Below, in pieces: positions 5,905-44,127 of a stretch of DNA of 64,000 bases (positions within the stretch are counted from its first letter, which is position 1; every line of letters starts with the position of its first letter). A program made the translations under genes and the position numbers. The notes under the pieces were generated by a model that was given only the letters and a program-made list of their open reading frames with translations, had not been told where the DNA came from and did no database searches. This DNA comes from an uncultured virus (IMG/VR IMGVR_UViG_3300042881_004014) (lineage: Duplodnaviria; Heunggongvirae; Uroviricota; Caudoviricetes): the IMG/VR virus record IMGVR_UViG_3300042881_004014; one strand, written 5' to 3'.

Positions 5905-6288
5905 TTATCTCGTTACGTTTTTAGATAATTTAACTTTACCTTCCAATAATCTCGTAACTTCACACCCTTTAACCACTTCTAAATCATAAACTGCTTCACC
6001 AAAATCTAATAAAGATGATGAATATGCTGATATATAGATACCTATTGAACCACTTTGTATTGGTGTTATACCATTTGAACCACTTAGATTAATACCCGTT
6101 CCACAACTATCCGAAAGTGATGATGATAGTGATAACAATGTTGTTGTTGACTCTACGTGCGGACGTATTTGCATTCTCGCATGATAACCACTCAAATCAA
6201 TTGCCGAACCACTTTCATCGGTCCAATCAATTTGAAAATTAGTTGTTGCTCCTTGCTCTATTACAAATGAGTATCTTCCTGCTGCCAT
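5905..6288 (-). CDS. Beta-sandwich fibre-attachment/adaptor-like structural protein
   Basis: 127 aa; IEQGAT..F, IDLSGY.ARMQIR, AVYDLEV, RLLEGKV motifs common in tailed-phage structural adaptors. Confidence 0.65.
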   Translation of the reverse strand: MAAGRYSFVIEQGATTNFQIDWTDESGSAIDLSGYHARMQIRPHVESTTTLLSLSSSLSDSCGTGINLSGSNGITPIQSGSIGIYISAYSSSLLDFGEAVYDLEVVKGCEVTRLLEGKVKLSKNVTR

Positions 6289-6343
6289 TATAATTGATGT
6301 TTAATACTTATAAATATTGTAAAATTTAGTAATGGAAAAAAAA

Positions 6344-6377
6344 GCATAAAAAAAGAGGAATAGTTCCCTATCCCTCT
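6344..6377 (-). terminator. Rho-independent terminator after DUF2589-like pair
   Basis: Minus strand AGAGGGATAG-GGAA-CTATTCCTCT followed by a T run. Confidence 0.85.
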
Positions 6378-6394
6378 GATTTTATAATAAAATT

Positions 6395-6871
6395 TTATTT
6401 TTGATTCGGGTCTTCCAAATTTTTAATATATTCATCAATTAATCGACTAACCGCTTCCGGCTTTTCATCTGCCTTAAATTTTACTTTAATCTTAGCCATA
6501 CCAGCTTCACTTGGATTGTAACCGGAATCAACCTCAATACCTTTGATATTGTGTTCGTATCCCTTTTTCTTAAATAACCCCAATAGAGATTTTTTAAGAT
6601 TGGAAACTTCCTTTTCTTCATCACCAAATATAAGTCTACAAGAGAACTCAATATCTAATTCTTCCAACCCAATAGATGAGTGGTCTGCTAAAATATAAAG
6701 AGGAACAATCATATCCCTACCACCTATATTAAAGGAAGTAGTTTTGGGTGTACCATCTTCATTGAAATAGTTTCGGAGAGCATTAATATGCTGTCTTTCA
6801 CTTATACCTTGAGAAACCATGGCGGCCTCTAACAGACCGCCAACTAGTTCCTCTACATTTAATCTTGCCAT
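6395..6871 (-). CDS. DUF2589-like protein (short paralogue)
   Basis: 158 aa; EELVGGL.EAAM..Q, IVPLYILADHSSIGLEELDIEF, C-terminal PEAVSRLID pattern. Confidence 0.7.
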   Translation of the reverse strand: MARLNVEELVGGLLEAAMVSQGISERQHINALRNYFNEDGTPKTTSFNIGGRDMIVPLYILADHSSIGLEELDIEFSCRLIFGDEEKEVSNLKKSLLGLFKKKGYEHNIKGIEVDSGYNPSEAGMAKIKVKFKADEKPEAVSRLIDEYIKNLEDPNQK

Positions 6872-6897
6872 AATATATAACCTTTATTGTTTAATTA

Positions 6898-7500
6898 TTA
6901 CTTAGCTGCAGTACCTTCTCCGAATGGAATTAACGATGGCTCTAACATTTGAGTTAGGTAATCAGATAATTTCAACATACCTTCAGTTGCTGGTAATTGC
7001 TCAGCATGTACTTTTACATTGTATTTTGCTGAGTTATCAGTTGAACGAGTGTTTTCTTTGTTGGTTGAAACTTTACCTGCTACTTTAGCGTTAAAGCTCA
7101 TTCCCCACCATTTTCCACCTGCAGACATTTCATAGCTGTTTTCACTAGCTGATGTATCCTTCGATGCTTCAGATGTTTTAACTTCCATAGCGAATTCGAT
7201 GTCCGCTGATGTAATAGCCAATGATGGTAGTGGTACTAATGGTAACATTGGAACTTTACTATACAATTTTTGTATTTCTTGTTCACCTGTATCTGCGTTA
7301 GTAACAACACGATTCATTTCTACGTCTAATGAACGAGCAGATGTTTTACCTGTCTTTTCATCTTTTACGAAAGCAACTTCAGAAATGTACTTCCAAGTTA
7401 CTTCATTTAATTTTGCTTGCCCTTTAGCCATTCCAATAATAGGAGAAACAATTAGTTCTTCTATTGGAAGACCTGCGAACTGGTCTGCGATTGATGCCAT
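6898..7500 (-). CDS. DUF2589-like protein (long paralogue)
   Basis: 200 aa; QFAGLPIEELIVSP..MAKGQAKL, VPMLPLVPLPSLAITSADIEFAMEVK, STDNSAKYNVKVHAEQLPATEGM. Confidence 0.8.
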   Translation of the reverse strand: MASIADQFAGLPIEELIVSPIIGMAKGQAKLNEVTWKYISEVAFVKDEKTGKTSARSLDVEMNRVVTNADTGEQEIQKLYSKVPMLPLVPLPSLAITSADIEFAMEVKTSEASKDTSASENSYEMSAGGKWWGMSFNAKVAGKVSTNKENTRSTDNSAKYNVKVHAEQLPATEGMLKLSDYLTQMLEPSLIPFGEGTAAK

Positions 7501-7580
7501 AAAATTTATTTTTTTTTATATTAGTTTAACGTAACCAAAGTTGTTTATAAGTATGTAGTATTTTTTGAAAGCAAATAGCT

Positions 7581-7784
7581 TTATGAAAATTTAACCATAC
7601 CCTTATATTTCTTTTTTATTTTATCTATTTCCGAAATTGCTTCCGTAAAACTTTTTTTAATTTCTTCATTTACAGTAAAATCCATTATAACTTCACAATG
7701 TGGGCATGCCATCACTGGATGCTTTATAATAAATTGTAAAGTTAAACCAAGTGGTTGTTTACATGCGGGGCAGGGTAAAGCCAT
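7581..7784 (-). CDS. Small zinc-ribbon protein
   Basis: 67 aa; CPAC...CPHC plus C-terminal basic helix; own upstream promoter motif at 7800-7808. Confidence 0.7.
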   Translation of the reverse strand: MALPCPACKQPLGLTLQFIIKHPVMACPHCEVIMDFTVNEEIKKSFTEAISEIDKIKKKYKGMVKFS

Positions 7785-7826
7785 AAAATTCTACTTTATT
7801 ATAAGTATAAGAGTTTTAACAAAACC

Positions 7827-7859
7827 GCATAAAAAAGAGGGATAGTTTCCTATCCCTCT
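7827..7859 (-). terminator. Rho-independent terminator of major capsid gene
   Basis: Minus strand AGAGGGATAG-GAAA-CTATCCCTCT plus T run, just downstream of the capsid stop. Confidence 0.9.
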
Positions 7860-7882: not shown

Positions 7883-9523
7883 TTAAATAGAAGCTAAATC
7901 TTTAACAAAAATACGACCGTAGTACTCAGGACGAACCATTTTCTTAGCGTATCTTGTCATTACACCTCTACGAGGAGTAAAGTTTGTTGGGTCATACACC
8001 AAAGGAGTCATAATTAATGGAACGTATGGTGCGTAAACAGCTCCAGTTTCCAAGAAGTTTGAACCTCTGAATCCTAACAAGATTTCGTTTGAAGTCATGT
8101 AAGGGTTTTTGTAAACAGTGTATCTATTAGCGATAGCACCAACTTGCGTTACACCAGCTGCGAAAGATGCAGAATCCTTATCAGCGTTCACTGTAAATGC
8201 AGGAATCGATTCTAAGATAGTACATACATCAGGAGAAGCAACAACGAAGTTAGCTCCACCTCTTAATGTCAATTGGTGAATTTTGTTAGATACTTTGTTT
8301 AATTTAGTACCTAAAGTTTGGAACCAAGTATTCTTTTGGTAAGCCATTCCAGTTGCTGCTCCAGACCATACGCCTGATGCTGCATTGTATTCTTCACCAA
8401 TAGTTGCTGACCAATACTCAGTAGTTAAAGCGTTTGATTTTAACATATCTAAGATTTCTAAGTCAATCTCTAAAGAGATATAATCAGATAACATAGAAGT
8501 TAATTCCGCTTCAGCGTCAATTGAGTGGTAAGCGTTCAAATCTTGCGCCAATTCAGGAGTCCATACTGCTTTCAACTTACGAGTCTTAGCAACGATAGCC
8601 TCTGATTTCAATTCTAAGTCAACCTCAGGAATATCGATATCAGTTCCGATTGTTCCTTCAGTATCTGCTCTTTTACCAGAGTTTTTACCATCTTCAAAAT
8701 CACCTCTAGAGTAATCATTTGGTACAACTGAGTAAGTTAATACTACAGTTTGTGCAGCAGTTTTAGCAGTTTGTAAACCAGCAGATGCTGATACGAACAT
8801 TACTAAGTTAGCTCCAGATACTTTGTGGAATTGATTTAAGTTAGTAAGTGAACCACTTGCTACGTTAAATGAACGTACACCATCTAAATCAGCTGTTGTT
8901 GGAGCTGTGAAAGTTGCTTTATGCACTTGTCCAGCTGCTACAGAAGCAGAAAGTTCAGATGTAAATCCTACATCAGCCCAAGATGCTGAAGTATAAGTGA
9001 TTGCAGAGTGAGCGAAAGATGCAGTTACATCATTTACTGTGTATCCGAATCTACCTTCACCATATAAACCATTTTCAGCTACTGCAGTAGTACCGAAACC
9101 AGCACCAGCAGCAGAATCTTGTCCGTTACCACCAAAAAGTGATTTTCCAGAGAAAGTTGGGTTACCACCTTGAGCAGTACCATATTTGAAATCCAAATAG
9201 AATACAAGTCCAGAAGGTAAGTTCATAGGTTGTACACTAACGAATTCTTTAGAAGCAATCTCACCGAAGATTCTTCTTACTAAAGGTAAAGCTACACCGC
9301 TCCACTCTTCAGAGTTTGCACCAACACCAGTTTGTGTTGCTTCATCAAGCAATTGTTTTGCTTGGTTTTCCAAAAGTACAGCCATTGCACTTTGGTCTTT
9401 TGTCTTTAAGCCTTCAAGAAGTCCAGTTTTTTCCCATTTTGATTTAAGTTGACGAGTTTCGTTCAACATAACCGATTGTGGGTTCTTTCCTTCCATTAAC
9501 TTAGATAAATCGAAATTTGCCAT
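7883..9523 (-). CDS. gp23: Major capsid protein (T4 gp23-like)
   Basis: LPLVRR, VSVQPMNLPSGLVFYLDFKY, AKTRKLKAVWTPELAQDLNAYHSIDAEAEL, YAPYVPL, PRRGVMTRYA. Confidence 0.97.
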   Translation of the reverse strand: MANFDLSKLMEGKNPQSVMLNETRQLKSKWEKTGLLEGLKTKDQSAMAVLLENQAKQLLDEATQTGVGANSEEWSGVALPLVRRIFGEIASKEFVSVQPMNLPSGLVFYLDFKYGTAQGGNPTFSGKSLFGGNGQDSAAGAGFGTTAVAENGLYGEGRFGYTVNDVTASFAHSAITYTSASWADVGFTSELSASVAAGQVHKATFTAPTTADLDGVRSFNVASGSLTNLNQFHKVSGANLVMFVSASAGLQTAKTAAQTVVLTYSVVPNDYSRGDFEDGKNSGKRADTEGTIGTDIDIPEVDLELKSEAIVAKTRKLKAVWTPELAQDLNAYHSIDAEAELTSMLSDYISLEIDLEILDMLKSNALTTEYWSATIGEEYNAASGVWSGAATGMAYQKNTWFQTLGTKLNKVSNKIHQLTLRGGANFVVASPDVCTILESIPAFTVNADKDSASFAAGVTQVGAIANRYTVYKNPYMTSNEILLGFRGSNFLETGAVYAPYVPLIMTPLVYDPTNFTPRRGVMTRYAKKMVRPEYYGRIFVKDLASI

Positions 9524-21212: not shown

Positions 21213-24200
21213 CTATTCGTAAAATAATCCAAGAATTTGATTTAATGGTGCAAATGTACCTGTTAGTTTCATTGTATTTCCATTGTACACAAATACGATA
21301 CCTTCGTTTGGAACTATTTTATCTTTTCCACCAATAGCGTTTAATCTTTGTAATTCCATTTTAAGTTTTGCTATCTTCTTTTCATCACCACCAGTCTTAA
21401 CATCTGATATAGTTTTATCTAATCTATCCTTCATAGCTCTAACCGCAGAATCAGGGTTTGCTGTAAGTACTGAACTCATAAATGAAAGTACTTCAGAGCC
21501 AACACCCAAAAATATATCCTCAAAAGGTCTAATATTATCCTTTGCTATCTTAGCGTGGTCATTCTTATCAATACCAGTTGCCCAACTTAATACTTTAGCA
21601 TCGGTAATGTTTTTATTGTCTAAACGGAATGATTTATCATAGAATGCCCATCTCTTAACCAATCCCATTAGAGTTCTATTATCAATCGGAGATGGTGATT
21701 TCTTAGTTACAAAATCAGTCCACCATGCTTGATGATAATCAGCAATACCATCCGTATCGGATAGTTTAAACTTAGATTGTAGTTTTGTAATCTGTCCACT
21801 ATATTTTCCTTTTAATGAAGTTAAGTTTTTTGATTGTGGTAACTTAACAACTGGAGGTCCTTGTATTGTATAAGCCGATTGTACGTTTTGATTTACTTGC
21901 TTAATCATACCAGCCAAAACTTTAGCTGCTTCTTGATTTTCACCAATTGCTATACCAGCTTCATTATATTCCATTGTTCCATGAAATACTAATAGTGCTT
22001 GTCCATAAGGAATTACATTTACCGAAGTTGGATATATTACCTCCAAATTCATAAAACATGCACCATTCTTAAAAACTTTTTCTCTTTGTTTTTCTGAAAG
22101 TGATTTTATTGCTTTTGATAAATCACTCATAGCAAAGTTGTATGCTTTTTCTAACTCACCTCTTCCGGCAAACTTAGTAGCTACTCCATTTATATCCAAT
22201 GCCTTCTCACCTCTATTAGCTAGATGTCCTTTGTTTCTAGCAGCAACTAATCTTCCATTCACCCAACTGATTGCTAATGCTTGTCCATCAGTTTTTTCTC
22301 TTGTCAATTCCAACTTACCTTCTAATGCACGATTCACAATATCTTTAAGTTGTCCAAATGTTAAGTTAATTTCAGTATCAAATGGATGATTCATATGTCC
22401 ATACGCACCACCTTCAGTTAATAACCCCTCAGTTATGTTTGGGTTATTATCAGTTCCACATTTGTGACACATATAGGTATCACTTCCACCTTCAGAAATT
22501 TTCCAACTCCAACCACAATTATCACAAATTACTTTACCATTTTCTACTCTTTCACTAATCCCACCACCCAATGCGTATGGTTCGTTATATTGTAATTTCT
22601 CAGCGTTAAATTTCTTTCTTAATCTTTTAAGAACTTCTTTATGTTTATCAATCCATGCTTGGTCTGGGTAACCCATTCCAATTCCTTCAAATGCTGATTT
22701 GGTTTTTACTTTATACCAACCACCACCCGGTGTTCTGAATATTCTTGCAGGTATTTCTAATATTCCATTTGATGGTAATTTAGAATGATACTTTGAATCA
22801 ATATGAACAACCTTTACAATGAATACTTTTTTCTTATTATCAGCTCCAATCAATTCAACTTCTAATGGAACTGCTACTCCACCTATTTTAAGTTTACCAC
22901 CAAAGATATTACCTTTAGTGTATGCTTCTTCTACTGATTTTTTAACCATTTCATATCCTTTATCTTCGGTATCCTTTGTATTTGTTTGATGACCAGGTTC
23001 TGTTTTTTTACTATCATCAAAATCAATTGTATCCAATTCTGCACCATATCCCATATCAGGTGTATATGTTCCCGATTTGTGATGTTGTAAAAAATTATGG
23101 TCTATTGTACCATCCGATTTATGATTTTTTGAATTAATATTTTCATTTTTACTTATTTCAATTGCTCTTAATTGCTTAAGTGCTTTCTCTTTAGTATCAT
23201 GTGTTCCTAATCTATCACCACCATCCTTTGGATATACCACCCACTTACCATCAATATGTTTGATTGTTTCAACAGTCAATTTCATTGATTCTTTGCTTCT
23301 AAAATCTCTAGTTCCACCTTTATTATCTTTAAATCCGAATGATTTATAGAATTGGATTAATCTTCCCTTAGAACCCCCAAAATCAGATGATGGAGTTAAG
23401 AATACATCTTTTTTGGTTTTCTTTGCATAAGTAATAATATCATTCATTACTTTTGTACCAATACCCTCACTTCTTTTTTCTTTTGGAACAACTATTCTGT
23501 GAATTTCTAAGTATTCTGGATATTCATATACATCCAATTCCACACCATGTTTTTTCCCCAAATGAGAGTCTAACGTTTCAGCAATTACTGATTCAAATTT
23601 ATATTCAGGTGTTGTTGTTTTGAATTCACCTTTTCTCATTATAGTTTTTGCAATAGCTTTATTAGCTTGAAGCATAAATGGTATATTGATATTAGTTCTA
23701 TTATCCTTTGCTACAACTTGGTTGTATTGAGTTAAGAATTCAACAAATTTCTTTTTATTTCTACCTAATCTTTTAAAGAACCCAGTTAGTTCTGCTGCTG
23801 ATATTTCCTTACCATTTCTCGTATCATTTAATCTATCGAAAAAATGTTTATCAGTAAGAACGATATCAATTGGATTTAATTGTCTATCAGCGTATTTATC
23901 AATTTGTTGTAAATCAGCCATTGGGATTTCGTTAATTACCGATTCGTTTTTACCAGTATCTGCTTTTTTAGCAGCAACACCAATTTCTTCTGCAAATTTA
24001 TTTGACATTGGTATCACATCCTTTATATCGGCATCAATAACAATAACTTTCATATTAGCAGGTTTCCCATCTCTAATTGCGTTTGTTGTTACAGCTGCCC
24101 AACGATGATGACCATCCACTACATATCCATCTCTACTTACATAGATTGGAGCAGTAATCTTTGGATGATTCGGGTCATTCTCTAATGCCTTTGCCATACC

Positions 24201-25685
24201 AGCTACCTTTGCACCAACTAATTCAGATTGAGTTGCTTTTAGAGAATCCGATGGTAATTCAGTTTGGATAGTTTTAATACCCTTTCTTTTCAATAGTTCT
24301 CTAAACATTGGTTCCGTATCAACTTCACCATTTATATCTTTTTCCATACTTGCCGCAGGTGAACCTTCGGTTGGTTTGCCTTTAAATTGTGGCATTTCCT
24401 CACGAGGAATTCCAGCATTACCAGCACAATATAAGTTTGTTCCAGCTACAGTTATTTTACATAAATTGTAATTAGGAGCTGCTTCACCATTTTCTTTTGC
24501 CTGATTTGTTAGTTGAACCAACTTATCAATCTGCATTGAAATTTCTCTTTGTTGCTTATTTGAAATTTTAGGAATATCCGATTCTGAACTAAATGTATCT
24601 GAATCTGCTTTTGGTAATACCTTAGTTACATTATCTAATGCAACATTTGGTATTTCAGTTTTGGGTTTTTCTTTTTGCTTAACATCAGGTGCATGTTTAA
24701 ACATATCCGAACCGGCTACTTTAGTTCCTTTAGATGGTTCCGATTTTGTATCACTAGCTCCATCTATTTTAACATACTTACCACCATCATTCTTTGAAAA
24801 AGATGGAGAAGATTCATCATCCTCTTTACCTTTTTGTTTATACACACCATGTCCAATATGAGTGTATTTGGAATCATCATTTTCATCTTCAAAGATTACT
24901 TGATATCCTTCCTTTATCATTCTAAAAGTTGCTACCTTTTTACCATTGATAGTTGGCATTCCATGTTCATCTTTTCCAATAGTTTTTACAATAACTTTTT
25001 TATTTTTAAATCTACCCATTAAAATGGTATCTCCGATTTCAACATCTAATGTAATACCTTCATCTAAATTAATTGATTCTGGTAATTTGGAAAGTTTATC
25101 AACAACCATATCAAAAATTGATTGATTGAATTTACCATAAGCTTTCTTTACAAAGAAATCTTTTTTATCCTCAGTACTACCTTTTTTTAAACCAATCCTA
25201 ACATCAGTACCACTAATTGCATTTGGTTGTGCTGGTGATATAAAAACATACCCCCTATCAGCATATCCTTCCAATTCAATACTATCTTTGTATTTTTCAA
25301 AATACTTCCCACCCAAACGACTTGAATCTTTCTCACCAACCACAGTTATAAATGCAGTAGTTTCTTTATTGAATTTGCTTAGGATTTCAGTTGGAGCATA
25401 GGGATTTTTGACCTGAGCTATTTTGTTTGATGGGATACCAAACATAGTGGTCATTACCTTTACTTTCTCCTTAAAATTGAATGGGGATTTTTGATTGTCT
25501 GTTTTATCAGAGGTTCCGATATAAACATTATTTTTTCCAAACTTTTTTACTAATGTTTGGTAAGTAGCGAAGTGCCCTTTATGAAAAGGTTGAAAGCGAC
25601 CAGAGTAAACAACAACTAAGTCCTTTACACTGCTCGCTTCTCCTAATAATATACTCTCTACTAAAAACTTTGATAAATCACTCAT
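21213..25685 (-). CDS. Polyvalent multidomain protein: HxGH nucleotidyltransferase, ParB/Srx-like, GNAT, Zn ribbon, KxDG ligase-like domain
   Basis: GRFQPFHKGH; PIYVSRDGYVVDGHHRW; IVVPKEKRSEGIGT...LIQFYKSFGF; CDNC...CHKC; GHMNHPFD...EKTDG. Confidence 0.8.
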   Translation of the reverse strand: MSDLSKFLVESILLGEASSVKDLVVVYSGRFQPFHKGHFATYQTLVKKFGKNNVYIGTSDKTDNQKSPFNFKEKVKVMTTMFGIPSNKIAQVKNPYAPTEILSKFNKETTAFITVVGEKDSSRLGGKYFEKYKDSIELEGYADRGYVFISPAQPNAISGTDVRIGLKKGSTEDKKDFFVKKAYGKFNQSIFDMVVDKLSKLPESINLDEGITLDVEIGDTILMGRFKNKKVIVKTIGKDEHGMPTINGKKVATFRMIKEGYQVIFEDENDDSKYTHIGHGVYKQKGKEDDESSPSFSKNDGGKYVKIDGASDTKSEPSKGTKVAGSDMFKHAPDVKQKEKPKTEIPNVALDNVTKVLPKADSDTFSSESDIPKISNKQQREISMQIDKLVQLTNQAKENGEAAPNYNLCKITVAGTNLYCAGNAGIPREEMPQFKGKPTEGSPAASMEKDINGEVDTEPMFRELLKRKGIKTIQTELPSDSLKATQSELVGAKVAGMAKALENDPNHPKITAPIYVSRDGYVVDGHHRWAAVTTNAIRDGKPANMKVIVIDADIKDVIPMSNKFAEEIGVAAKKADTGKNESVINEIPMADLQQIDKYADRQLNPIDIVLTDKHFFDRLNDTRNGKEISAAELTGFFKRLGRNKKKFVEFLTQYNQVVAKDNRTNINIPFMLQANKAIAKTIMRKGEFKTTTPEYKFESVIAETLDSHLGKKHGVELDVYEYPEYLEIHRIVVPKEKRSEGIGTKVMNDIITYAKKTKKDVFLTPSSDFGGSKGRLIQFYKSFGFKDNKGGTRDFRSKESMKLTVETIKHIDGKWVVYPKDGGDRLGTHDTKEKALKQLRAIEISKNENINSKNHKSDGTIDHNFLQHHKSGTYTPDMGYGAELDTIDFDDSKKTEPGHQTNTKDTEDKGYEMVKKSVEEAYTKGNIFGGKLKIGGVAVPLEVELIGADNKKKVFIVKVVHIDSKYHSKLPSNGILEIPARIFRTPGGGWYKVKTKSAFEGIGMGYPDQAWIDKHKEVLKRLRKKFNAEKLQYNEPYALGGGISERVENGKVICDNCGWSWKISEGGSDTYMCHKCGTDNNPNITEGLLTEGGAYGHMNHPFDTEINLTFGQLKDIVNRALEGKLELTREKTDGQALAISWVNGRLVAARNKGHLANRGEKALDINGVATKFAGRGELEKAYNFAMSDLSKAIKSLSEKQREKVFKNGACFMNLEVIYPTSVNVIPYGQALLVFHGTMEYNEAGIAIGENQEAAKVLAGMIKQVNQNVQSAYTIQGPPVVKLPQSKNLTSLKGKYSGQITKLQSKFKLSDTDGIADYHQAWWTDFVTKKSPSPIDNRTLMGLVKRWAFYDKSFRLDNKNITDAKVLSWATGIDKNDHAKIAKDNIRPFEDIFLGVGSEVLSFMSSVLTANPDSAVRAMKDRLDKTISDVKTGGDEKKIAKLKMELQRLNAIGGKDKIVPNEGIVFVYNGNTMKLTGTFAPLNQILGLFYE

Positions 25686-25743
25686 TATATGATAATTATT
25701 TCTCTTATACCATATAAATATAATAATTTATTGTTTTAGTTTT

Positions 25744-26070
25744 TTATTTAGCCGCTTGCTCTTTAAAAGCTGGATTATAAGTAATAGTACCTTCTCTTAA
25801 ATCGATTTGACCTCTTGGGTATTCCTTTTCAAGACCAGCTACTAATTCTCTCATCGCATCATTTTGAGATTTAAAATCAGCTTCAGCTCTTTCTAAACCA
25901 TCATGTAGTTTATCCATTTCTTCTTCTAATTCTTTTCTTCTCAAATAGATTTGCCCGAAAGCGTTTACTAATTCTTGAATTTTACCATTGCCTTCTCTTA
26001 GTGGAGTAAGGATATCTTCGGTTAATTCTACTGTAACTAACTCGATTTTTTGAATTGTTTCGTTTGCCAT
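25744..26070 (-). CDS. Coiled-coil hypothetical protein (paralogue of 30617..30889)
   Basis: 108 aa; ends EYPRGQIDLREGTITY. Confidence 0.75.
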   Translation of the reverse strand: MANETIQKIELVTVELTEDILTPLREGNGKIQELVNAFGQIYLRRKELEEEMDKLHDGLERAEADFKSQNDAMRELVAGLEKEYPRGQIDLREGTITYNPAFKEQAAK

Positions 26071-26116
26071 TGTTTTTTTAATTAAAAATTGTTTTTGAAT
26101 TCATATATAAATATAT

Positions 26117-26869
26117 CTAACTGAAATTTTCAGAAATTACACTTACCCCACGTTTTTGTATAACCTGAGATGAACATCGATTTCCAAATATAATTGATTC
26201 ATTAATATTATTTGTTTCCAAATACTTTGTAGTGAATCCTGCTACAAAAGTATCACCTGCTCCTGAGATATCCATTATCTCAACTTTATCAGTTGGATAC
26301 ATATTGTTTAAATACATACATCCATCTTTATCTAATGTGATTATTAGTTTTTCTAAAATCCATTCATTATTTTCAATAAATGATTTATTATTTTGATATT
26401 CGGTTCTGTTTAATTTAATGAACTTTAAATCAGTGCACCATTCTCCTAATTTTTTTTTAGTATCACAAATTGTATTAGGGTGATTAAATGCTATTTTAGC
26501 AATATCAGTATCACTTAGAAATCCTTTGTTATAATCCGATATGACTATCATATCAAAATCATAAAAATTTATTTCAGAAAGTGTATTACCAATAGGCGGA
26601 ACTACATCATCAATATCAACTCGTAAAAGTAAATGATTAAAACTTTCCTCAACATATCTCTTTTTTACAATCAATTGAGTATTACAAATCAATTCAGTTT
26701 TACAACCCAATGCTTCTAAATTTTCTTTAACATTATAAGCCATACCACCATTGGTGATTGTATGTGATTCTATAAAAACAGGTGCAGGTCCTTCAGGTGA
26801 TAATCGTGTAGCTTTTCCATAAACGAATTCATCTAAACATCCCTCACCTATAATTAATACTTTACTCAT
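26117..26869 (-). CDS. hldA: Heptose-7-phosphate kinase-like, PfkB family (HldE/RfaE domain I)
   Basis: LDEFVYG..RLSPEGPAPV, GGMAYNV, SDYNKG, DISGAGDTF. Confidence 0.85.
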   Translation of the reverse strand: MSKVLIIGEGCLDEFVYGKATRLSPEGPAPVFIESHTITNGGMAYNVKENLEALGCKTELICNTQLIVKKRYVEESFNHLLLRVDIDDVVPPIGNTLSEINFYDFDMIVISDYNKGFLSDTDIAKIAFNHPNTICDTKKKLGEWCTDLKFIKLNRTEYQNNKSFIENNEWILEKLIITLDKDGCMYLNNMYPTDKVEIMDISGAGDTFVAGFTTKYLETNNINESIIFGNRCSSQVIQKRGVSVISENFS

Positions 26870-27251
26870 TTGTTAATATTTTAGTTGTACTGAAATCATC
26901 CATTCGATTAAAATACACAATTGATTTTGCGTATTGTTCTCCCACTATTGGTTTATTTTTATAATCAGACCCAATTACAAATATATCAGGGTTATATGTT
27001 TTAATTACATTTTCTAATAATTCAGCTGAATCAAATATAACTACTTTACTAACTCCTTTAATTCTTTCCAAATTATACTTTCGTTCTTCTTCAGTATGGA
27101 ACGGTCTATCTTCTCCTTTTAATTCCTTTACTCTCCTATCGGAATCAATTCCAATAATAACAATATCACCAAAGGCAGATGCGAACTCAATCATCTTAAA
27201 ATGCGCATGATGTAAAACATCAAAACATCCATTTAACCAAACCTTTTTCAT
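26862..27251 (-). CDS. hldC: Heptose-1-phosphate nucleotidyltransferase-like (HldE/RfaE domain II)
   Basis: NGCFDVLHHAH, GIDSDRRVKELKGEDRP, GSDY, FSTTKI. Confidence 0.85.
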   Translation of the reverse strand: MKKVWLNGCFDVLHHAHFKMIEFASAFGDIVIIGIDSDRRVKELKGEDRPFHTEEERKYNLERIKGVSKVVIFDSAELLENVIKTYNPDIFVIGSDYKNKPIVGEQYAKSIVYFNRMDDFSTTKILTNE

Positions 27252-28390
27252 AGAAACTTTTCTAATTCATTAATAACCATCTGAGATGTAATTGCTTTAG
27301 TACATTCAAATTGCCTATCCGTACCTTTATGGTCTGGACACCAATTCCAATCACCAGCATCTAATTTTAATCGGTTAAAGCATCCACCACATTTATCTTT
27401 AGGTGAAGTTATTCTAACACAATCTTGCATTTCTGCCCAATCATATGAGAATCCACTAATCAATACCGTCTTTGTACCCAATGCCCAACTTAACCAACTT
27501 AACCCACTACCAATACCAATGAATGCTTTTGATTTTCTCATTTCATCCATTACTTTTTCCAAAGAACCGGCTGGGTGTTTGACTACTCCAGTTGGGTGTT
27601 TATTACCCATATAATCATTATTCTCTTGTGATAATAGTTTAACTGTATAACCTTTATCATTTAACCAATTCACTACTTCTTGCCAACCATTTGGGTTATT
27701 CCAATACTTAGATTGAGCAGTTCCATGTATTGCTATTGTTATTAACTTATCATCTTTAACAATATCTGATGATGGTAACTTTGGTTTTATTTCTTTATAT
27801 GGTAATCCCAATATATCAGAACCCATTTTTTGCATTGTTTGGGATTTAAAATCGTTTGGATTTTTTCTGTTATTTACACTACCATCTTCATTATAGAATA
27901 AACCAACAGTATACATTGCGTATAAATTTTCAACACTTTGACCTGGTTTTACAAATTCTATATTTGGATATTGTGACTCTAACATTTCGTTATGAAATGT
28001 AGATACAATTAATTCACAATTATGTACTTTCTGAAATTCGTCAAAGTATGGAAACCATGCTAATGTATCACCCAATGCTTTTGATGATAGTGCTAGATAA
28101 ACTCTCTTATTAGTTGCGGTATAATCATGTTCAAAAAATAAAGTATTACCTTCCCATATTTCAATTCTCCAATCTATAAAATACTCAATATTACATTTAG
28201 CCCAAGTATTGTTTGATAATTCGGTTGTGAATAAAACATTACCATTACGTTTGTTTATAAACTTAACATTGTATTTACCCGTTTGGTTTCCCAATACTTC
28301 AGCCCAAGGACCATTTACGAAATGATAATTTACTTTATTTCGTACTTCAACAATGTTATTTAAATTTTTAGTTAATTTATCGTAAATCAT
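27248..28390 (-). CDS. Autotransporter heptosyltransferase (Aah/TibC family)
   Basis: SKALGDTLAWFPY, QSKYWNNPNGW, FIGIGSGLSWLSWA, VLISGFS and iron-finger-like CGGCFN...WNWCPDHKGTDRQFECTKAIT; start at 28390 gives TAATG coupling. Confidence 0.9.
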   Translation of the reverse strand: MIYDKLTKNLNNIVEVRNKVNYHFVNGPWAEVLGNQTGKYNVKFINKRNGNVLFTTELSNNTWAKCNIEYFIDWRIEIWEGNTLFFEHDYTATNKRVYLALSSKALGDTLAWFPYFDEFQKVHNCELIVSTFHNEMLESQYPNIEFVKPGQSVENLYAMYTVGLFYNEDGSVNNRKNPNDFKSQTMQKMGSDILGLPYKEIKPKLPSSDIVKDDKLITIAIHGTAQSKYWNNPNGWQEVVNWLNDKGYTVKLLSQENNDYMGNKHPTGVVKHPAGSLEKVMDEMRKSKAFIGIGSGLSWLSWALGTKTVLISGFSYDWAEMQDCVRITSPKDKCGGCFNRLKLDAGDWNWCPDHKGTDRQFECTKAITSQMVINELEKFL

Positions 28391-30552
28391 TAATTCCATT
28401 TTTTTACTTCTCTATCAATAAGAGAAAATCCATCTGCTTGTTTAACATACATTTTATTTGTAGTATATCGTAATTTAGATTCTTTATTAAACACATCAGT
28501 TAACCATAAATCATATCCCTCCCATAGGGTATCATTAAATCTATCAATCCACCAACTCTTTGTTCTATTTGGTATTAGATACGCATGTGCTAAATCTTGG
28601 TTTGATGCAGTTTTACTGAATAAATCATCAATGTATTCTTTACTTCTGGAATTATTGTTTGATAATCCAATAAAGTAAACATCATCTCTTTCAGAAATAA
28701 AACATGCTTTATGAACTGCTTCAACAAATTCTTTTAATCCAGTGAATATAAACGCATCAGCTTCAAATACTAATGTATAATCAAATTCATCATCCATAGC
28801 TTCTAATGCTCCCCTATGTGCGTTAAAGCACCCATAATGCCTACCCGTTAATGGACCTAATCCATTCCCAAAGTTTCCCGGCTTATCCGATATCTGATTT
28901 GGTCTTTTACAAAAATCAGATGGTGGTGTTCCATCAAATGGAGTATTTACAATTGGTTGATACACCATTCCATAACTTTCCAATTGTTTTAGTGATTCTG
29001 AACTAATTTGTTCTCTCAAATCATTTGGCTTAGTCATCAAATGTTTAATTTGAATCTTTGGTTTTTTTCTAACAAATGAACGATATACGTGCTTTGCTTG
29101 ATTATAAAAAAATTCATCAGCTGCTCTAGTAACCCCCGGAAAGAAACTTCCACCATAATCATCTCCACTAATAACACCACCCGGTTTTACTTTATGATAC
29201 CAAAAGTTTAAATCGGATTTTAAAGAATCATAAGTATGACCCGCATCCAACATAATAAAATCAATTGAGTTATGTTGAAATTGATTTGATGCGTTTTCAG
29301 ATGTATCCTTTATTACGTTAAATAATTTTGAGTTATTACTTAACATAGTATTTTCCATAAATTCTGAAAATATATCCCCACCAAATCCACCAACTATTGT
29401 ATCATGTATTTCTTCACCATCGGTACCTTTCCAAGTATCAACAGTTGTAAATTTAATATCTTTATTAGAATCTTTAATTAAGGTAGCCATATGATTGGTT
29501 GATTTACCCAACCATGCACCCAACTCAACAAATACATCACCATCGGTTCCATTTTCAACCATTTCATTATACAAATGTTCATATGAAAACCAACCAGGAA
29601 TTTCATTAAATTCAGGTTGTAGTTTTTCTAATATAATTTGTTTGGTTTGATTTAGGTTATCATCGATATAAGTAACCAATTCATTATTATCATATGAATC
29701 CAAATATGTGTGTAGTTTTCTGAATATAGATGGTAATCCATATCCCAATGCCTCTTTAATAGATAATGGATTTAATTCCAATTTAGAACTAAAGTAAAAC
29801 ATATCCGATGCTTTGTAGAATTTATCTACATCACTACGTTCACCCCATACAATACAATTATCAGGTTTGTGTTTCATTATTGGTCCCCAATATGATTCAA
29901 AGTTCATAGCTTGGTTTCCGATAAAATGAAATTTAATTTTATATTTTTCTAATAATCTAGCTACGTTGAATATTTCACCCTGATTCTTACCTTCAGTAAA
30001 TAATCCAACCATAAGAACATGCTTCCAATCAGATTCAAATCCCAATTCGTTTTTGAATTCGTTTTTATCATACTCAATAGTTTCTATTGGATAATCCCAT
30101 ACACGTGTATCTACTCCCACCAATTCAAATCTTCGTCTACTCCATTCAGATACTAAAACATATCTATCTGGATGATATTTGATTTCATTTGGATTTGTAT
30201 GAGAACCATGTGTAGATGCTACAATATAGTAATTTCTACTATTGTCAAAAATAGTATCTAATATATTGTGAGCTAAAAAATGTTCGGGGATTTCCGTAAA
30301 ATGAATTATGTTTGGTTGAGTTGATTTAATAATATCCACAAGTTCGGATTTATTATCACCCAATGTGTACAACTTACATAAATCAGCTATTTGATTCTTT
30401 TGTACTACAAAGGCATCACCAGAGTGATTGTTTACCTCAACTACCTCAATATCAAATTTATCTTTAAAGATTTGAATTTGCTTTAAAAGGTATTGTGGCA
30501 TCCCACCAGTTGAGAGATGGGATGCTATATATAACAATTTTTGTTTTGACAT
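28390..30552 (-). CDS. Tri-domain GT4-like glycosyltransferase / SAM methyltransferase / GT25-like glycosyltransferase
   Basis: HLSTGGMPQYL, KNQ, ELNPLSIKEAL (GT-B); VELGAWLGKS, DAGHTY, GDDY (methyltransferase); YGCFNAH, VFEADA, AHAY (GT-A). Confidence 0.8.
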   Translation of the reverse strand: MSKQKLLYIASHLSTGGMPQYLLKQIQIFKDKFDIEVVEVNNHSGDAFVVQKNQIADLCKLYTLGDNKSELVDIIKSTQPNIIHFTEIPEHFLAHNILDTIFDNSRNYYIVASTHGSHTNPNEIKYHPDRYVLVSEWSRRRFELVGVDTRVWDYPIETIEYDKNEFKNELGFESDWKHVLMVGLFTEGKNQGEIFNVARLLEKYKIKFHFIGNQAMNFESYWGPIMKHKPDNCIVWGERSDVDKFYKASDMFYFSSKLELNPLSIKEALGYGLPSIFRKLHTYLDSYDNNELVTYIDDNLNQTKQIILEKLQPEFNEIPGWFSYEHLYNEMVENGTDGDVFVELGAWLGKSTNHMATLIKDSNKDIKFTTVDTWKGTDGEEIHDTIVGGFGGDIFSEFMENTMLSNNSKLFNVIKDTSENASNQFQHNSIDFIMLDAGHTYDSLKSDLNFWYHKVKPGGVISGDDYGGSFFPGVTRAADEFFYNQAKHVYRSFVRKKPKIQIKHLMTKPNDLREQISSESLKQLESYGMVYQPIVNTPFDGTPPSDFCKRPNQISDKPGNFGNGLGPLTGRHYGCFNAHRGALEAMDDEFDYTLVFEADAFIFTGLKEFVEAVHKACFISERDDVYFIGLSNNNSRSKEYIDDLFSKTASNQDLAHAYLIPNRTKSWWIDRFNDTLWEGYDLWLTDVFNKESKLRYTTNKMYVKQADGFSLIDREVKKWN

Positions 30553-39844: not shown

Positions 39845-40018
39845 ATGAATAAGAAATATGCTATGTTACAAATTGATGCTGAGGTTCATCAATTGTTAAA
39901 AGATTTTTGTAAAGATAAGGGTTATAAAATGAATGGGTTGGTTGAGAGTCTAATTAAAGATAAAGTATCCCCATTTAAAACTCAACAACCAACCAATATT
40001 TTAAGAACTAGAACTTAA
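39845..40018 (+). CDS. Ribbon-helix-helix DNA-binding protein (below ORF-track cutoff)
   Basis: MNKKYAMLQIDAEVHQLLKDFCKDKGYKMNGLVESLIKDKVSPFKTQQPTNILRTRT, 57 aa; strand-helix-G-helix pattern; fills an intergenic gap and has its own promoter motif. Confidence 0.75.
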   Translation: MNKKYAMLQIDAEVHQLLKDFCKDKGYKMNGLVESLIKDKVSPFKTQQPTNILRTRT

Positions 40019-43000: not shown

Positions 43001-43139
43001 CCAAATAGATAATAGAATTTTCAATATTATCTTTTCTAACATTTTCTAAAAACTTATTGAATACATCTCTGTACTCATTATGTCTTTTTAAGTTACGGAT
43101 ATGTAAATCCGCTAAGTGATAGATTTTTTCTACTTTCAT
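40008..43139 (-). CDS. Fused Mre11/SbcD nuclease - Rad50/SbcC ATPase (gp47-gp46-like)
   Basis: HLADLH, AGDIAH, GNHD, LGDIH phosphoesterase motifs; Walker A APNASGKSS; zinc hook CNVC; CSGMEK; VVDEGFGTLD; IISH. Confidence 0.93.
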   Translation of the reverse strand: MKVEKIYHLADLHIRNLKRHNEYRDVFNKFLENVRKDNIENSIIYLAGDIAHAKTEMSPELVREISWFLTECANLKETFLITGNHDCNLNNNYRLDVLTPIVENLNNERIHYLRDTGIYPFNNITFVVYSILDKKENWPKAEVVEGENKICLFHGPVNNAETDIGYTVSSNSFTTDMFEGFDMVMLGDIHKRQTLGIPTIAYAGSLIQQNHGESLDKHGYLLWDVESRTFEEFDIENDYGFYTLDVINGVVPAVTDMPAKPRLRVRISNTDPSKIKRVLTDIKKKYKVEEFTVTRMDTLSKQKTGNYDDKLSIGNVRDVEFQNELIRDYLKRQYFADADTIDKIQQINRELNTRLVDEESIPNIQWIPKTFEFSNMFSYGPNNLIRFDNAKGMVGVFAPNASGKSSLFDAISFCIFDKTSRTYLAKNILNNRKTEFDCKLNFQIDGINYFIERKAKIINKGKNIKVDVDFWKVEDGLVTSLNGEQRRETNSIIQQYMGSYEDFVLTTLSLQGNNALFIDKSQTERKEILAQFMGVDVFDKLYTIASDENRDNASLIRKFKQDDFTQRLADIETNLISKNKEYSLIEAQLNEATGSVDTYNQKLISLNEKIVPLKSDTYSLTELENKKSTLGNNLIDLLKQQSKTKADIVILQSDRDRLLGALEGFDEADIESGIGRLKTQREQLQTLTNEIEKIDIKLESLYDKKEHLDSHKYNEDCNVCMENSATILEAKKEAVESIKEFKERQSQYNETKLELESSVNSLLNYEVSWKLLSDTKSDETKVERELSTLINKLSTIETQEVKLENEVKEVTQLIADYLENEKQIQKNKEIRTEIQIVRTDLASSKTLVEQKNKLLLNLNGDVSSLTNQKETIEARIKEVEELEEQFGLYEYYLNALSKDGISYELISKALPMIEGEVNNILGQIVEFGVQLDMDGKNINANIVYDDQKWSLEMCSGMEKFISGLAIRIALINVCNLPRPNFLVVDEGFGTLDNENLTSLYMLFAYLKTQFDFVMIISHIDSMRDVVDSLMEIKKVNGFSSVKF

Positions 43140-44074: not shown

Positions 44075-44095
44075 ATATTTAAATTATGGTTTATA

Positions 44096-44127
44096 CAAAT
44101 ATACGAATAATATTTGATATATCCAAA
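44096..44127 (-). promoter_or_regulatory. Bacteroidota-type promoter for primase/Mre11-Rad50
   Basis: Minus strand TTTG-N20-TATATTTG. Confidence 0.75.

What the first reader, a model, noticed from the sequence alone, without database searches (positions are those of the whole stretch)
6395..7808. Zn-ribbon + paired DUF2589-like genes inserted right behind the capsid gene
Seen: a long and a short DUF2589-like paralogue plus a CxxC-CxxC protein, with phage promoter motifs at 7800 and 7546. The long copy has an extra Ser/Thr-rich alternating segment (SASENSYEMSAGGKWWGMSFNAKVAGKVSTNKENTRST) absent from the short copy, and by eye uses capsid-like codons (TTC, AAC, TAC). I know DUF2589 as an uncharacterised, mostly bacterial family that occurs in pairs; I recall a link to R-body (reb) loci, which needs verifying. 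Inference: a highly expressed two-component oligomer whose hairpin resembles the membrane-inserting hairpin of beta-pore-forming proteins (lysis aid, exclusion, or anti-grazer/anti-competitor toxin).
Basis: partly seen in the sequence, partly recalled or inferred. Interest (0 to 1): 0.78.

Follow-up and report, generated by a model that had tools for sequence, protein, structure and literature searches.

The report
Mobile DUF2589 trio linked to cell-wall lysis
Three small genes sitting behind the capsid gene of a large freshwater phage form a mobile cassette whose two core proteins, of unknown fold, are found across bacteria next to cell-wall-cutting enzymes, so they probably help break or open the cell envelope rather than build the virus particle.

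Summary
Window 6395-7808 (minus strand) encodes a CxxC...CxxC protein (67 aa), a long (200 aa) and a short (158 aa) DUF2589 protein. Both pass Pfam's cut-off. Two of the phage's own promoter-like motifs and two near-identical terminator hairpins frame them. The long gene has capsid-like codon usage (rank 3 of 51).

The trio is a mobile cassette. It stays together in 77 of 80 related viral loci, in three cyclic gene orders. It lies next to the capsid gene only in this phage's own population (8 of 80). A 76%-identical relative has capsid-terminator-p127 with no trio. Elsewhere the trio lies inside or beside the endolysin block.

In bacteria, DUF2589 pairs plus a conserved ~88-aa protein lie within 3 kb of a peptidoglycan hydrolase or binder in 57 of 80 loci. 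These hydrolases come from at least nine unrelated families and mostly lack signal peptides. No holin-like gene was seen in 11 of 12 cassettes. One phage variant of the short protein carries an inserted peptidoglycan-binding domain.

No known fold matched. The recalled R-body link failed. Best reading (about 0.5): an uncharacterised envelope-breaching or hydrolase-release module, perhaps a soluble two-component beta-hairpin pore. No function has been tested.

The parts
7836..7859 (-). Terminator-like stem-loop plus T-run just after the capsid gene. It is the upstream copy of the duplicated stem-loop/promoter unit that brackets the cassette.
   Evidence: 10-pair stem AGAGGGATAGGAAACTATCCCTCT followed by TTTTTT; alignment with the copy at 6354-6377.
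7800..7807 (-). Phage promoter-like motif TACTTATA, 16 nt upstream of the Zn-ribbon gene's start codon.
   Evidence: 17 of 26 minus-strand matches are intergenic, P 2e-18.
7581..7784 (-). Zn-ribbon-like protein of 67 aa (CPAC...CPHC plus a basic C-terminal helix). It is the third member of the phage cassette.
   Evidence: ORF; only sub-threshold zinc-ribbon Pfam hits; phrog_15404 7.5e-5, function unknown; always found with the DUF2589 pair; no homologue in the bacterial loci.
7546..7553 (-). Second promoter-like motif TACTTATA, 46 nt upstream of the long DUF2589 gene.
6898..7500 (-). Long-type DUF2589 protein of 200 aa. It has an N-terminal helix, a beta-sheet core, a Ser/Thr/Gly/Ala-rich hairpin (residues ~109-153) with a GGKWWG centre, and a C-terminal helix. 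Its codon usage is capsid-like.
   Evidence: PF11655 4.5e-30. AF2 pLDDT 72.8, hairpin below 50.; contigs from RNA libraries of 3 of 4 runs cover it.
6395..6871 (-). Short-type DUF2589 protein of 158 aa with the same topology. In place of the hairpin it has a variable segment with a cationic amphipathic helix (LKKSLLGLFKKK). It starts 26 nt after the long gene and has no promoter motif of its own.
   Evidence: PF11655 6.8e-13. AF2 pLDDT 67.6, helix 91-100; alignment; sequence.
6354..6377 (-). Terminator-like stem-loop after the short gene. It is the downstream copy of the duplicated unit.
   Evidence: AGAGGGATAGGGAACTATTCCTCT followed by TTTTTTT..
6309..6316 (-). Promoter-like motif TATTTATA, 21 nt upstream of p127 (5905-6288). 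It belongs to the downstream copy of the stem-loop/promoter unit.
7883..9523 (-). gp23-type major capsid protein. It is context only and not part of the cassette.
   Evidence: PF07068 3.3e-76; phrog_138.

Best explanation
The three genes are one mobile, late-expressed cassette.

Core and likely role (inferred). The core is a long plus a short DUF2589 protein. This pair is the phage version of a widespread, uncharacterised bacterial module that works together with peptidoglycan hydrolases to breach the cell envelope. The most likely role is to let a signal-less endolysin, or in bacteria other cytoplasmic wall- or membrane-degrading enzymes, reach its substrate. On this reading the pair does the job that holins do in ordinary lysis cassettes.

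Proposed mechanism (inferred, not shown). The abundant long subunit and the short subunit co-assemble. The amphipathic Ser/Thr/Gly/Ala-rich hairpins of the long subunit, with their aromatic-glycine tips, insert into the cytoplasmic membrane from inside. The variable segment of the short subunit, which is a cationic helix here and a peptidoglycan-binding domain in some relatives, contacts the envelope. The small third protein, a Zn-ribbon in phages and a conserved ~88-aa protein in bacteria, regulates or nucleates assembly.

Position (shown). The place behind the capsid gene is a recent relocation by recombination between repeated terminator/promoter units and carries no functional meaning.
For: Shown:
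1. Both proteins are PF11655 members.
2. In 77 of 80 related viral loci the three genes are together on one strand. The orders are 49 Znr-long-short, 22 long-short-Znr and 6 short-Znr-long, and none falls in the other rotation class. The capsid gene is in the flank in only 8 of 80.
3. Relative G001 has capsid-terminator-promoter-p127 without the trio. Its trio lies between homologues of g107 and g239, two genes of this phage's endolysin block.
4. With G000's endolysin-block proteins as queries, 26 of 80 viral loci hold a homologue of at least one of them within the 6-kb flanks. The trio lies directly next to the GH19 endolysin in L012 and L062, and 3.8 kb downstream of it in L056-L058, L060 and L061.
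5. The phage endolysin (G000:C1:8174-8995, PG_binding_1 plus GH19) has no signal peptide or TM segment.
6. In 80 bacterial loci (the best 80 of 370 found) the DUF2589 pair, usually with a conserved ~88-aa protein, has a peptidoglycan hydrolase or binder within 3 kb in 57 of 80. It is within 1 kb in 54 and on the same strand in 52. The families are GH19 18, GH108 11, an unnamed family 8 (the member inspected, L098, begins with a PG_binding_1-like segment, seen by eye), GH25 4, SLT 4, Amidase_2 4, PF11860 muramidase 3, GH24 2, VgrG3-C 2 and PG_binding_1 alone 1. The density is 62 hits per 454 kb near the cassettes against 1 per 561 kb in the far flanks of the same loci.
7. Of the 15 adjacent PG-related proteins inspected, 12 have no hydrophobic N-terminus; the three exceptions are two GH25 and one SLT. 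In 11 of 12 cassettes there is no small TM ORF on the cassette strand.
8. The module occurs in monoderm Lachnospiraceae directly upstream of an Amidase_2 enzyme. An outer-membrane-only role therefore cannot be general.
9. In one phage lineage (the L029 type) the short paralogue carries a PG_binding_1 domain in its variable segment. One metagenomic protein fuses Amidase_2 to a long-type DUF2589 (1 of 30 long forms scanned).
10. The hairpin is 35-63 aa and 55% S/T/G/A/N. It has an aromatic+Gly centre in 63 of 70 homologues, and its residue alternation is above shuffles (mean z 1.93).
11. The long gene has capsid-like codon usage here (rank 3 of 51). It ranks 1-5 in its neighbourhood in 13 of 14 relatives. 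Contigs from RNA libraries of 3 of 4 runs, from three studies, cover it.
Against: - No experiment and no structural match supports a pore. Foldseek PDB found nothing at E <= 0.001. VIA-align over 48,161 chains gave best Z 4.1 (long) and 3.7 (short), driven by the N-terminal helix.
- The hairpin is variable in length, only weakly hydrophobic on its apolar face, and predicted with pLDDT below 50.
- None of the three proteins has a TM helix or signal peptide, so they are not holins by definition.
- The phage's endolysin block contains g107, a 107-aa protein with one moderately hydrophobic segment (seen by eye, below my threshold). It could be the real holin.
- In this phage the trio is 63 kb from the endolysin.
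- 23 of 80 bacterial loci show no hydrolase with my query set.
- The 4 Vibrio SLT genes are divergent, signal-bearing MltF-like enzymes and may be coincidental neighbours.
- Related genomes are counted separately, so 57 of 80 is not 57 independent events.
- The far-flank control used queries taken from near-cassette genes, so it is biased.
- Some cassettes sit next to non-wall enzymes: patatin, GDSL lipase, a colicin-type DNase and a C58 protease. That fits a release or cargo system as well as a lysis device.
- Capsid-level codon bias is higher than one would expect for a classical holin.
Confidence: 0.5

Rival explanations
1. The DUF2589 pair is the cargo, not the gate. On this reading it is a two-component, possibly pore-forming, toxin or other released factor. 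Its exit from the producer depends on the neighbouring muramidase, as in holin/peptidoglycan-hydrolase-dependent ('type 10') secretion or bacteriocin release. The phage carries it to act on other cells (competitors, grazers, superinfecting phage hosts) after lysis.
For: - The neighbours include a range of antibacterial-type enzymes beside the wall hydrolases: patatin in L097, L104, L106 and L141; GDSL lipase in L133; a colicin-DNase/WHH protein in L161; a C58 protease in L118 and L152. That resembles effector islands.
- The GH108+PG_binding_3 architecture next to the Luteibacter and Roseateles cassettes is, from my recall, the architecture of the muramidase used for typhoid-toxin export.
- The long subunit has a high-expression codon signature.
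- The hairpin is amphipathic.
Against: - No signal peptide is present on either protein, although periplasmic cargo of such systems usually has one.
- No immunity-like gene was recognised.
- No similarity to any solved toxin fold was found.
- In phages the trio clusters with the endolysin block, not with host-interaction genes.
- A phage lyses its host anyway, so a dedicated release partner is not needed.
Confidence: 0.15
2. The pair is a non-pore partner of the hydrolase. It could be a cytoplasmic chaperone, inhibitor or timer that holds the endolysin inactive until late, or an envelope-anchored scaffold that positions it on the peptidoglycan.
For: - The pair is tightly and repeatedly adjacent to wall hydrolases of many families.
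- One phage short paralogue has a PG_binding_1 insertion, and Geotalea has a separate PG_binding_1 gene in the cassette.
- An Amidase_2-DUF2589 fusion exists.
- The proteins are soluble with no TM segment.
Against: - One conserved partner would have to recognise at least nine unrelated catalytic folds, which is unlikely for a specific chaperone or inhibitor.
- The cassettes still lack any recognisable export route for signal-less hydrolases.
- Capsid-like codon usage of the long subunit suggests far more copies than an enzyme regulator needs.
Confidence: 0.15
3. The proteins are abundant virion or assembly components, such as a head decoration, an internal head protein or an assembly scaffold. 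They would be expressed with the capsid gene.
For: - The trio sits directly behind the capsid gene with late-type promoter motifs.
- The long gene's codon usage is next to that of capsid and scaffold.
- The sequence is highly conserved in metagenomes. In one search, 994 clusters scored E <= 0.001, and the 120 best listed are 91-97% identical except for one 254-aa form at 73%.
Against: - The position behind the capsid gene holds in only 8 of 80 loci, all 100% identical to the window. The closest relative has capsid-p127 without the trio.
- Neither DUF2589 protein matches a PHROG family.
- tblastn of the long protein found no match in 50,697 phage records. A bacterial homologue matched only one 4-kb fragment. 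Records of this genome or near ones may be left out of that collection.
- Homologues are common in bacterial chromosomes outside prophages, next to regulators and housekeeping genes.
Confidence: 0.1
4. The cassette is an accessory ('moron') module for defence, counter-defence or superinfection exclusion, and has nothing to do with lysis.
For: - The cassette is mobile, bracketed by repeats and found at variable genome positions.
- It is of bacterial origin and rare in cultured phages.
- Some bacterial copies lie near integrases, HNH genes or restriction-modification methylases.
Against: - PADLOC has no match for any of the three window proteins or for the five bacterial cassette proteins scanned with them. 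The one hit was a weak PbeC match, E 0.0041.
- The consistent neighbour is a wall hydrolase, not a sensor or nuclease.
- The long subunit is strongly conserved and highly expressed across a whole phage clade.
Confidence: 0.1

Closest known systems
Phage lysis cassettes (holin + endolysin, with or without spanins)
   Same: - The module is adjacent to signal-less peptidoglycan hydrolases whose catalytic family is swapped freely while the partner module stays.
- It is expressed late, to judge from the promoter motif.
- In relatives it lies in or beside the endolysin block.
   Different: - Holins are small integral membrane proteins with at least one TM helix. None of the three proteins has one.
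- Here the partner is two paralogous soluble ~160-200-aa proteins plus a small third protein.
- The module also occurs as a stand-alone cassette in bacterial chromosomes.
Bi-component and other beta-barrel pore-forming proteins (leukocidin/haemolysin, aerolysin, gasdermin types); the comparison rests on my recall of those families
   Same: - There are two paralogous subunits.
- The Ser/Thr/Gly/Ala-rich amphipathic hairpin is about 40 residues long, has an aromatic-glycine tip, and is disordered in the monomer model.
   Different: - No fold or sequence similarity was found to any solved chain.
- The short subunit lacks the hairpin.
- The hairpin varies in length from 35 to 63 aa.
- The proteins have no signal peptide, so they would have to act from the cytoplasmic side.
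PeSL cassettes (promoter plus stem-loop units) that shuffle genes in T4-type phages (Arbiol et al. 2010, PMC2839356; abstract and outline read. Comeau et al. 2014, PMC4122927; search listing only)
   Same: - The cassette is bracketed by two near-identical stem-loop-plus-promoter units, both in this phage (7836-7859 and 6354-6377) and, with a different repeat sequence, in relative G001.
- The cassette sits at different genome places in close relatives.
- Only cyclic permutations of the gene order are seen, as expected for a circular intermediate like the reported PeSL mini-circles.
   Different: - The promoter motif here (TAYTTATA) precedes mostly structural genes, so it looks late rather than sigma-70-like early.
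- This phage is only distantly T4-like.
- No circle or recombination junction was observed. The mechanism is inferred.
Holin/peptidoglycan-hydrolase-dependent protein release in bacteria ('type 10 secretion', bacteriocin lysis proteins); recalled, not read here
   Same: Stand-alone bacterial cassettes combine a phage-type muramidase with accessory genes and sometimes with other degradative enzymes.
   Different: Those systems use a membrane holin or a lipoprotein lysis protein. Here neither is present, and the DUF2589 pair plus the ~88-aa protein occupy that place.

Membership tests
DUF2589 (Pfam PF11655) | Score above Pfam's gathering cut-off (23 bits) over the full-length profile | tested here: met
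   the long protein scores 105.5 bits (profile 1-153 of 154) and the short protein 49.7 bits (3-153 of 154). One search gives the same result on the genome.
   nearly all of the 80 bacterial loci show a short-type ORF beside a long-type ORF; 77 of 80 viral loci have both.
Zinc ribbon | Two CxxC knuckles about 15-25 residues apart and a match to a zinc-ribbon family above its cut-off | tested here: inconclusive
   CPAC (5-8) and CPHC (27-30) are present in the translation. All 11 Pfam hits are below their cut-offs; the best is Trm112p at 18.2 bits against 22. No structure was predicted.
Holins | Small protein with at least one transmembrane helix | tested here: not met
   no 19-residue window with Kyte-Doolittle mean >= 1.6 in any of the three proteins. 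This is a simple hydropathy scan, not a dedicated predictor.
Beta-barrel pore-forming toxins or gasdermins | Fold similarity to a solved member | tested here: inconclusive
   Foldseek PDB found no match at E <= 0.001; an anthrax protective-antigen pore appears only at E 1.2. VIA-align gave best Z 4.1 and 3.7. The models have pLDDT 72.8 and 67.6, and the hairpin is below 50.
Beta-barrel pore-forming toxins or gasdermins | Amphipathic membrane-spanning beta-hairpin | tested here: inconclusive
   residue alternation is above shuffles (mean z 1.93; 64% of 70 sequences have z > 1.64) and an aromatic+Gly centre is present in 63 of 70. However, the apolar face is weak and the length is variable. There are no membrane data.
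R-body (RebB, PF11747) loci | Genomic linkage of DUF2589 genes with reb genes | tested here: not met
   RebB is found in 1 of 5 DUF2589-bearing genomes (A. fischeri chromosome II, ~1.266-1.284 Mb). The DUF2589 pair lies near 1.10 Mb (locus L128). No RebB hit occurred among the 79 + 145 neighbour proteins scanned.
PeSL-type mobile regulatory cassette | Gene(s) bracketed by repeated composite promoter + stem-loop units, with variable position among close relatives | tested here: met
   repeats in G000 and G001; positions and orders.
PeSL-type mobile regulatory cassette | Excised mini-circles or recombination junctions | not tested
   No read-level search for circle junctions was made. The runs laid were contigs only.
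Virion structural protein | Match to a structural PHROG or Pfam family, or conserved position in the structural module | tested here: not met
   no PHROG match for either DUF2589 protein; the trio is next to the capsid gene in only 8 of 80 loci. Virion proteomics cannot be done with these tools.

The most novel reading that the evidence does not exclude
DUF2589 pairs are a new class of soluble, two-component beta-hairpin membrane perforators that act from the cytoplasmic side. On this reading they replace holins. They would be used by many bacteria, across at least five phyla, as release modules for signal-less wall hydrolases and other degradative enzymes. A clade of ~270-kb freshwater phages would have captured them, with a Zn-ribbon regulator, as a self-contained cassette that hops between terminator/promoter units through a circular intermediate.
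Probability: 0.3. Interest if true: 0.85.

Novelty: new variant of a known kind. Interest (0 to 1): 0.68.

Why it matters
DUF2589 is a large family with no assigned function. A search over 1.84 billion representative proteins found 968 clusters at 50% identity. In the held library the name appears in only two papers, neither functional, and 'PF11655' appears in none.

This work gives the family a concrete and testable context: it is a conserved partner of peptidoglycan hydrolases.

If the pair proves to permeabilise the membrane, it would be a lysis or release device built on a different principle from all known holins. It would also supply the missing release step for signal-less endolysins in Bacteroidota-type phages, and for stand-alone muramidase cassettes in bacteria.

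The phage version is very abundant in freshwater metagenomes (994 and 539 clusters at 90% identity). RNA-library contigs from three studies cover it.

Separately, the cassette offers a clean natural example of terminator/promoter-mediated gene shuffling outside the classical T4 group. All 77 complete trios are cyclic permutations of one order.

Tried and rejected
- **Complex prediction.** Complex prediction of long + short, with alignments A1 and A3, gave no verdict (score 0.04 against a mark of 0.32) and the controls were not run. This is not evidence either way.
- **Sequence search of solved structures.** Nothing was found for the long protein. The short protein had only chance-level hits with E >= 0.25.
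- **Foldseek against PDB.** There was no hit at E <= 0.001. The top rows are unrelated (Q-beta coat, a Microcystis extracellular tube at probability 0.14, reovirus sigma1, anthrax PA pore, tail-tube proteins), all with TM below 0.25.
- **VIA-align wide.** Both models matched only long-helix proteins, with Z <= 4.1.
- **BFVD.** It returned only two unnamed viral homologues, A0A516MP19 and A0A516L4Y6.
- **ESM Atlas.** It gave no lead; the best score was 0.76 and the Atlas holds no model.
- **PADLOC and NCBIfam.** No family matched.
- **Phage records (INPHARED).** tblastn with the long protein found no match. With a Brenneria homologue it found one 4-kb fragment. Records of this genome or near ones may be hidden there.
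- **Fused forms.** Of 30 representatives scanned, 1 carried an enzyme domain (Amidase_2). All 96 longer homologues listed carry PF11655, one also PF18029 (not looked up) and none a wall-hydrolase domain; P0160, read, has an unannotated extension.
- **Zn-ribbon in bacteria.** No homologue was found in the 80 bacterial loci.
- **Sigma-70 promoter scan.** It found no more sites than shuffles (20 against 20.0), so I relied on the phage's own motif.
- **RNA-library contigs.** They did not cover the Zn-ribbon gene, the 3' half of the short gene or p127. With contigs, a hole proves nothing.
- **Virion-decoration reading.** I considered it and rejected it as the main explanation because of the lineage-specific position and the bacterial contexts.
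Full report
**What is there**

The window is part of a 270,865-bp virus record that CheckV rates as complete. It has ~31% G+C, and every gene I called lies on the minus strand.

Reading downstream from the T4-type head genes, the order is:
- portal (PF07230), prohead protease (PF03420) and an acidic scaffold;
- gp23-type capsid, 7883-9523 (PF07068, 3e-76);
- a 67-aa CxxC...CxxC protein, 7581-7784;
- a 200-aa protein, 6898-7500;
- a 158-aa protein, 6395-6871;
- p127 and fibre-like genes.

Both larger proteins are DUF2589 members above Pfam's cut-off (105.5 and 49.7 bits against 23). They are only 21% identical to each other (E 6e-4). The small protein gets only sub-threshold zinc-ribbon hits and two PHROGs of unknown function.

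**Signals**

TAYTTATA is a genuine phage motif. Of 26 matches on the gene strand, 17 lie wholly in the 3.9% of the span that is intergenic, 5-49 nt before a start codon (P 2e-18). The plain count is not above shuffles.

They precede the Zn-ribbon gene and the long gene. The short gene starts 26 nt after the long one and has no motif, so long and short are probably co-transcribed.

Terminator-like hairpins follow the capsid gene (7836-7859) and the short gene (6354-6377). The two hairpins are near-identical, and each is followed by a promoter motif.

The long gene's share of C-ending two-fold codons is 0.50. That is third of 51 genes, after capsid (0.57) and scaffold (0.56), against a median of 0.20. 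The short gene (0.23) and the Zn-ribbon gene (0.0) are ordinary. The long gene keeps this bias in 13 of 14 relatives, whatever its position.

Contigs from RNA libraries of 3 of 4 runs, from three studies, cover the long gene of ~90%-identical relatives. These are contigs only, so they give no level, strand or transcript ends, and DNA carry-over is not excluded.

**A mobile cassette, not a capsid accessory**

Close relatives of the long protein occur on 175 viral contig stretches, of which 80 loci were kept.
- In 77 of the 80, all three genes are present on one strand.
- The orders are 49 Znr-long-short, 22 long-short-Znr and 6 short-Znr-long.
- These are the three rotations of one circular order. 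No locus falls in the other rotation class.
- The capsid gene is in the 6-kb flank in only 8 of 80 loci, all of them 100% identical to the window.

In G001 (274 kb, complete, capsid 76% identical) the capsid gene is followed by a single terminator plus promoter and then the p127 homologue. G001's own trio lies elsewhere, bracketed by a different pair of near-identical stem-loop/promoter repeats.

This is the pattern described for the PeSL cassettes and mini-circles of T4-type phages (PMC2839356, abstract and outline read). I infer recombination between such units, possibly through a circle. No junction was observed.

**Where the trio normally lives**

The phage's endolysin is at G000:C1:8174-8995. 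It has PG_binding_1 plus GH19 and no signal peptide or TM segment, and it lies 63 kb from the trio.

In relatives the trio sits in that same block:
- between homologues of g107 and g239 in L011, L016-L024, L056-L058, L060 and L061 (in L015 only g239 was detected);
- after the g634 homologue and just before the g107 and g239 homologues in L069-L075;
- directly beside the endolysin in L012 and L062.

In all, 26 of 80 loci matched at least one block protein. L077 has a more distant GH19 about 5 kb upstream.

**Bacterial homologues**

A pattern scan of one genome per species found 370 loci, and the best 80 were kept. They span Pseudomonadota, Campylobacterota, Bacteroidota, Bacillota, Desulfobacterota and others.

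Almost all show a short-type and a long-type DUF2589 gene. About 70 also have a conserved ~88-aa protein with no Pfam family, no cysteine pairs and no similarity to the phage Zn-ribbon.

Pfam scans of neighbours covered 79 proteins from 12 loci and 145 proteins from 36 further loci. For the second scan I dropped L138, L154, L155 and L163 to fit the 150-protein cap. I then recounted over all 80 loci with phmmer, using the examples found. The recount shows a peptidoglycan hydrolase or binder:
- within 3 kb in 57 of 80 loci;
- within 1 kb in 54;
- on the same strand in 52.

The families are GH19 18, GH108 11, an unnamed family 8 (the member inspected, L098, begins with a PG_binding_1-like segment), GH25 4, SLT 4, Amidase_2 4, PF11860 muramidase 3, GH24 2, VgrG3-C 2 and PG_binding_1 alone 1.

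With the same queries there are 62 hits in 454 kb near the cassettes and 1 in 561 kb of far flank. That control is biased, because the queries came from near-cassette genes.

Of the 15 adjacent PG-related proteins inspected, 12 lack a hydrophobic N-terminus; the exceptions are two GH25 and one SLT. In 11 of 12 cassettes no small TM ORF lies on the cassette strand. The 4 Vibrio SLT genes are divergent MltF-like enzymes with a signal anchor and may be coincidental neighbours.

Other neighbours include patatin, GDSL lipase, a colicin-type DNase and a C58 protease.

Two fusions point the same way. A phage short paralogue has PG_binding_1 inserted in its variable segment (L029). A metagenomic protein joins Amidase_2 to a long-type DUF2589.

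**Structure**
- The AlphaFold model of the long protein (70-sequence alignment, pLDDT 72.8) has a 30-residue N-terminal helix, a sheet of long strands, a C-terminal helix, and a hairpin at 111-153 with pLDDT below 50.
- The short protein (pLDDT 67.6) has the same topology, with a helix at 91-100 where the hairpin would be.
- Neither model matches a solved fold.
- Across 70 long-type homologues the hairpin is 35-63 aa and 55% S/T/G/A/N. It has an aromatic+Gly centre in 63 of 70 and residue alternation above shuffles.
- This pattern is compatible with a membrane-inserting or barrel-forming hairpin. It does not prove one.

**Interpretation**

The strongest and most repeated signal is partnership with wall hydrolases whose family is freely exchanged. 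That is the hallmark of lysis cassettes.

The partner hydrolases are mostly signal-less, and no holin-like gene is present in the cassettes. The module also occurs in monoderms. The most economical reading is therefore a membrane-opening or release function (confidence about 0.5). A two-component hairpin pore is the specific mechanism I favour (about 0.3).

The rivals are a released toxin or cargo, a hydrolase regulator or scaffold, a virion component, and an unrelated accessory function. They are set out with their tests in the Rival explanations section.

The R-body recollection is not supported.

'DUF2589' appears in two papers of the held library, both as a passing annotation, and 'PF11655' appears in none. 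I therefore found no published function. Subscription journals and supplements were not searched.

Noticed in passing
window 31358-39727 (-): A 2,789-aa fibre-like protein with Hint/intein-type domains (Intein_splicing, PT-HINT, Hint; residues ~2209-2511) and a gp53-like C-terminal domain. It may be an intein or a self-cleaving module inside a giant tail fibre.
   Followed up: no
window 21213-30552 (-): A sugar-modification cluster sits inside the structural region. It holds a 1,490-aa protein with cytidylyltransferase + GNAT domains, a PfkB kinase, a second cytidylyltransferase, a GT9 heptosyltransferase-like protein and a GT1 + methyltransferase fusion. It looks like a heptose or nucleotide-sugar pathway, perhaps for virion or host-surface glycosylation.
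   Followed up: no
window 40008-43139 (-) and 44454-44915 (-): An Mre11-like phosphoesterase and a Rad50/SMC-like ATPase are fused in one 1,043-aa ORF. A SegE-type GIY-YIG homing endonuclease lies nearby.
   Followed up: no
window ~44075-44127 and ~44329-44453 (upstream of 43136-44074 and 44128-44328): A second, different upstream motif (TTCGTATATTTG..TATAAAC) precedes the primase gene and a small ORF. It may be the promoter of another temporal class (seen by eye, two copies only).
   Followed up: no
G000:C1:3028-8995 (outside the window): This is the endolysin block. It holds a GH19 endolysin with PG_binding_1, a 634-aa protein homologous to T9SS-sorting-domain proteins of relatives, g107 with one moderately hydrophobic segment (a possible holin or spanin-like protein, judged by eye), and two signal-peptide proteins, g239 and g420. 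In relatives the trio sits between g107 and g239.
   Followed up: partly
L128:8867-9139, L130:8748-9014 and about 70 other bacterial loci: A conserved ~88-aa protein (motifs FDLT.V.YIKR...GEHQVV.QW.VYH.GF.RKP) accompanies the bacterial DUF2589 pairs. It has no Pfam, NCBIfam or PADLOC family. It is apparently an undescribed family.
   Followed up: partly
L029:6703-7416 (also L031, L032, L036-L038, L041, L053 by length and identity): The short-type DUF2589 here is 237 aa, with a PG_binding_1 domain (residues 109-170) inserted where the window's short protein has its cationic helix.
   Followed up: partly
protein P0001 (254 aa, sequence): This metagenomic variant of the long protein has a tandem internal duplication of about 54 residues (the TSARSLDVEMNRVV...EFAMEVKTS segment). 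It could be a real variant or an assembly artefact.
   Followed up: no
L087, L089, L090: Three MAG contigs labelled Rickettsia or Rickettsiales carry one short-type and two long-type DUF2589 genes. Their long-type genes are 37% identical to the window's long protein, and there is no ~88-aa gene and no hydrolase. The binning or the biology of these contigs is unclear.
   Followed up: no
L092, L099, L103, L119 (about 7150-7850 in each): In Oxalobacteraceae cassettes a fourth ORF of ~180-190 aa lies between the ~88-aa gene and the long gene. It has a DUF2589-like 'LELT.YGYC' strand motif, so it may be a third, very divergent paralogue (judged by eye).
   Followed up: no
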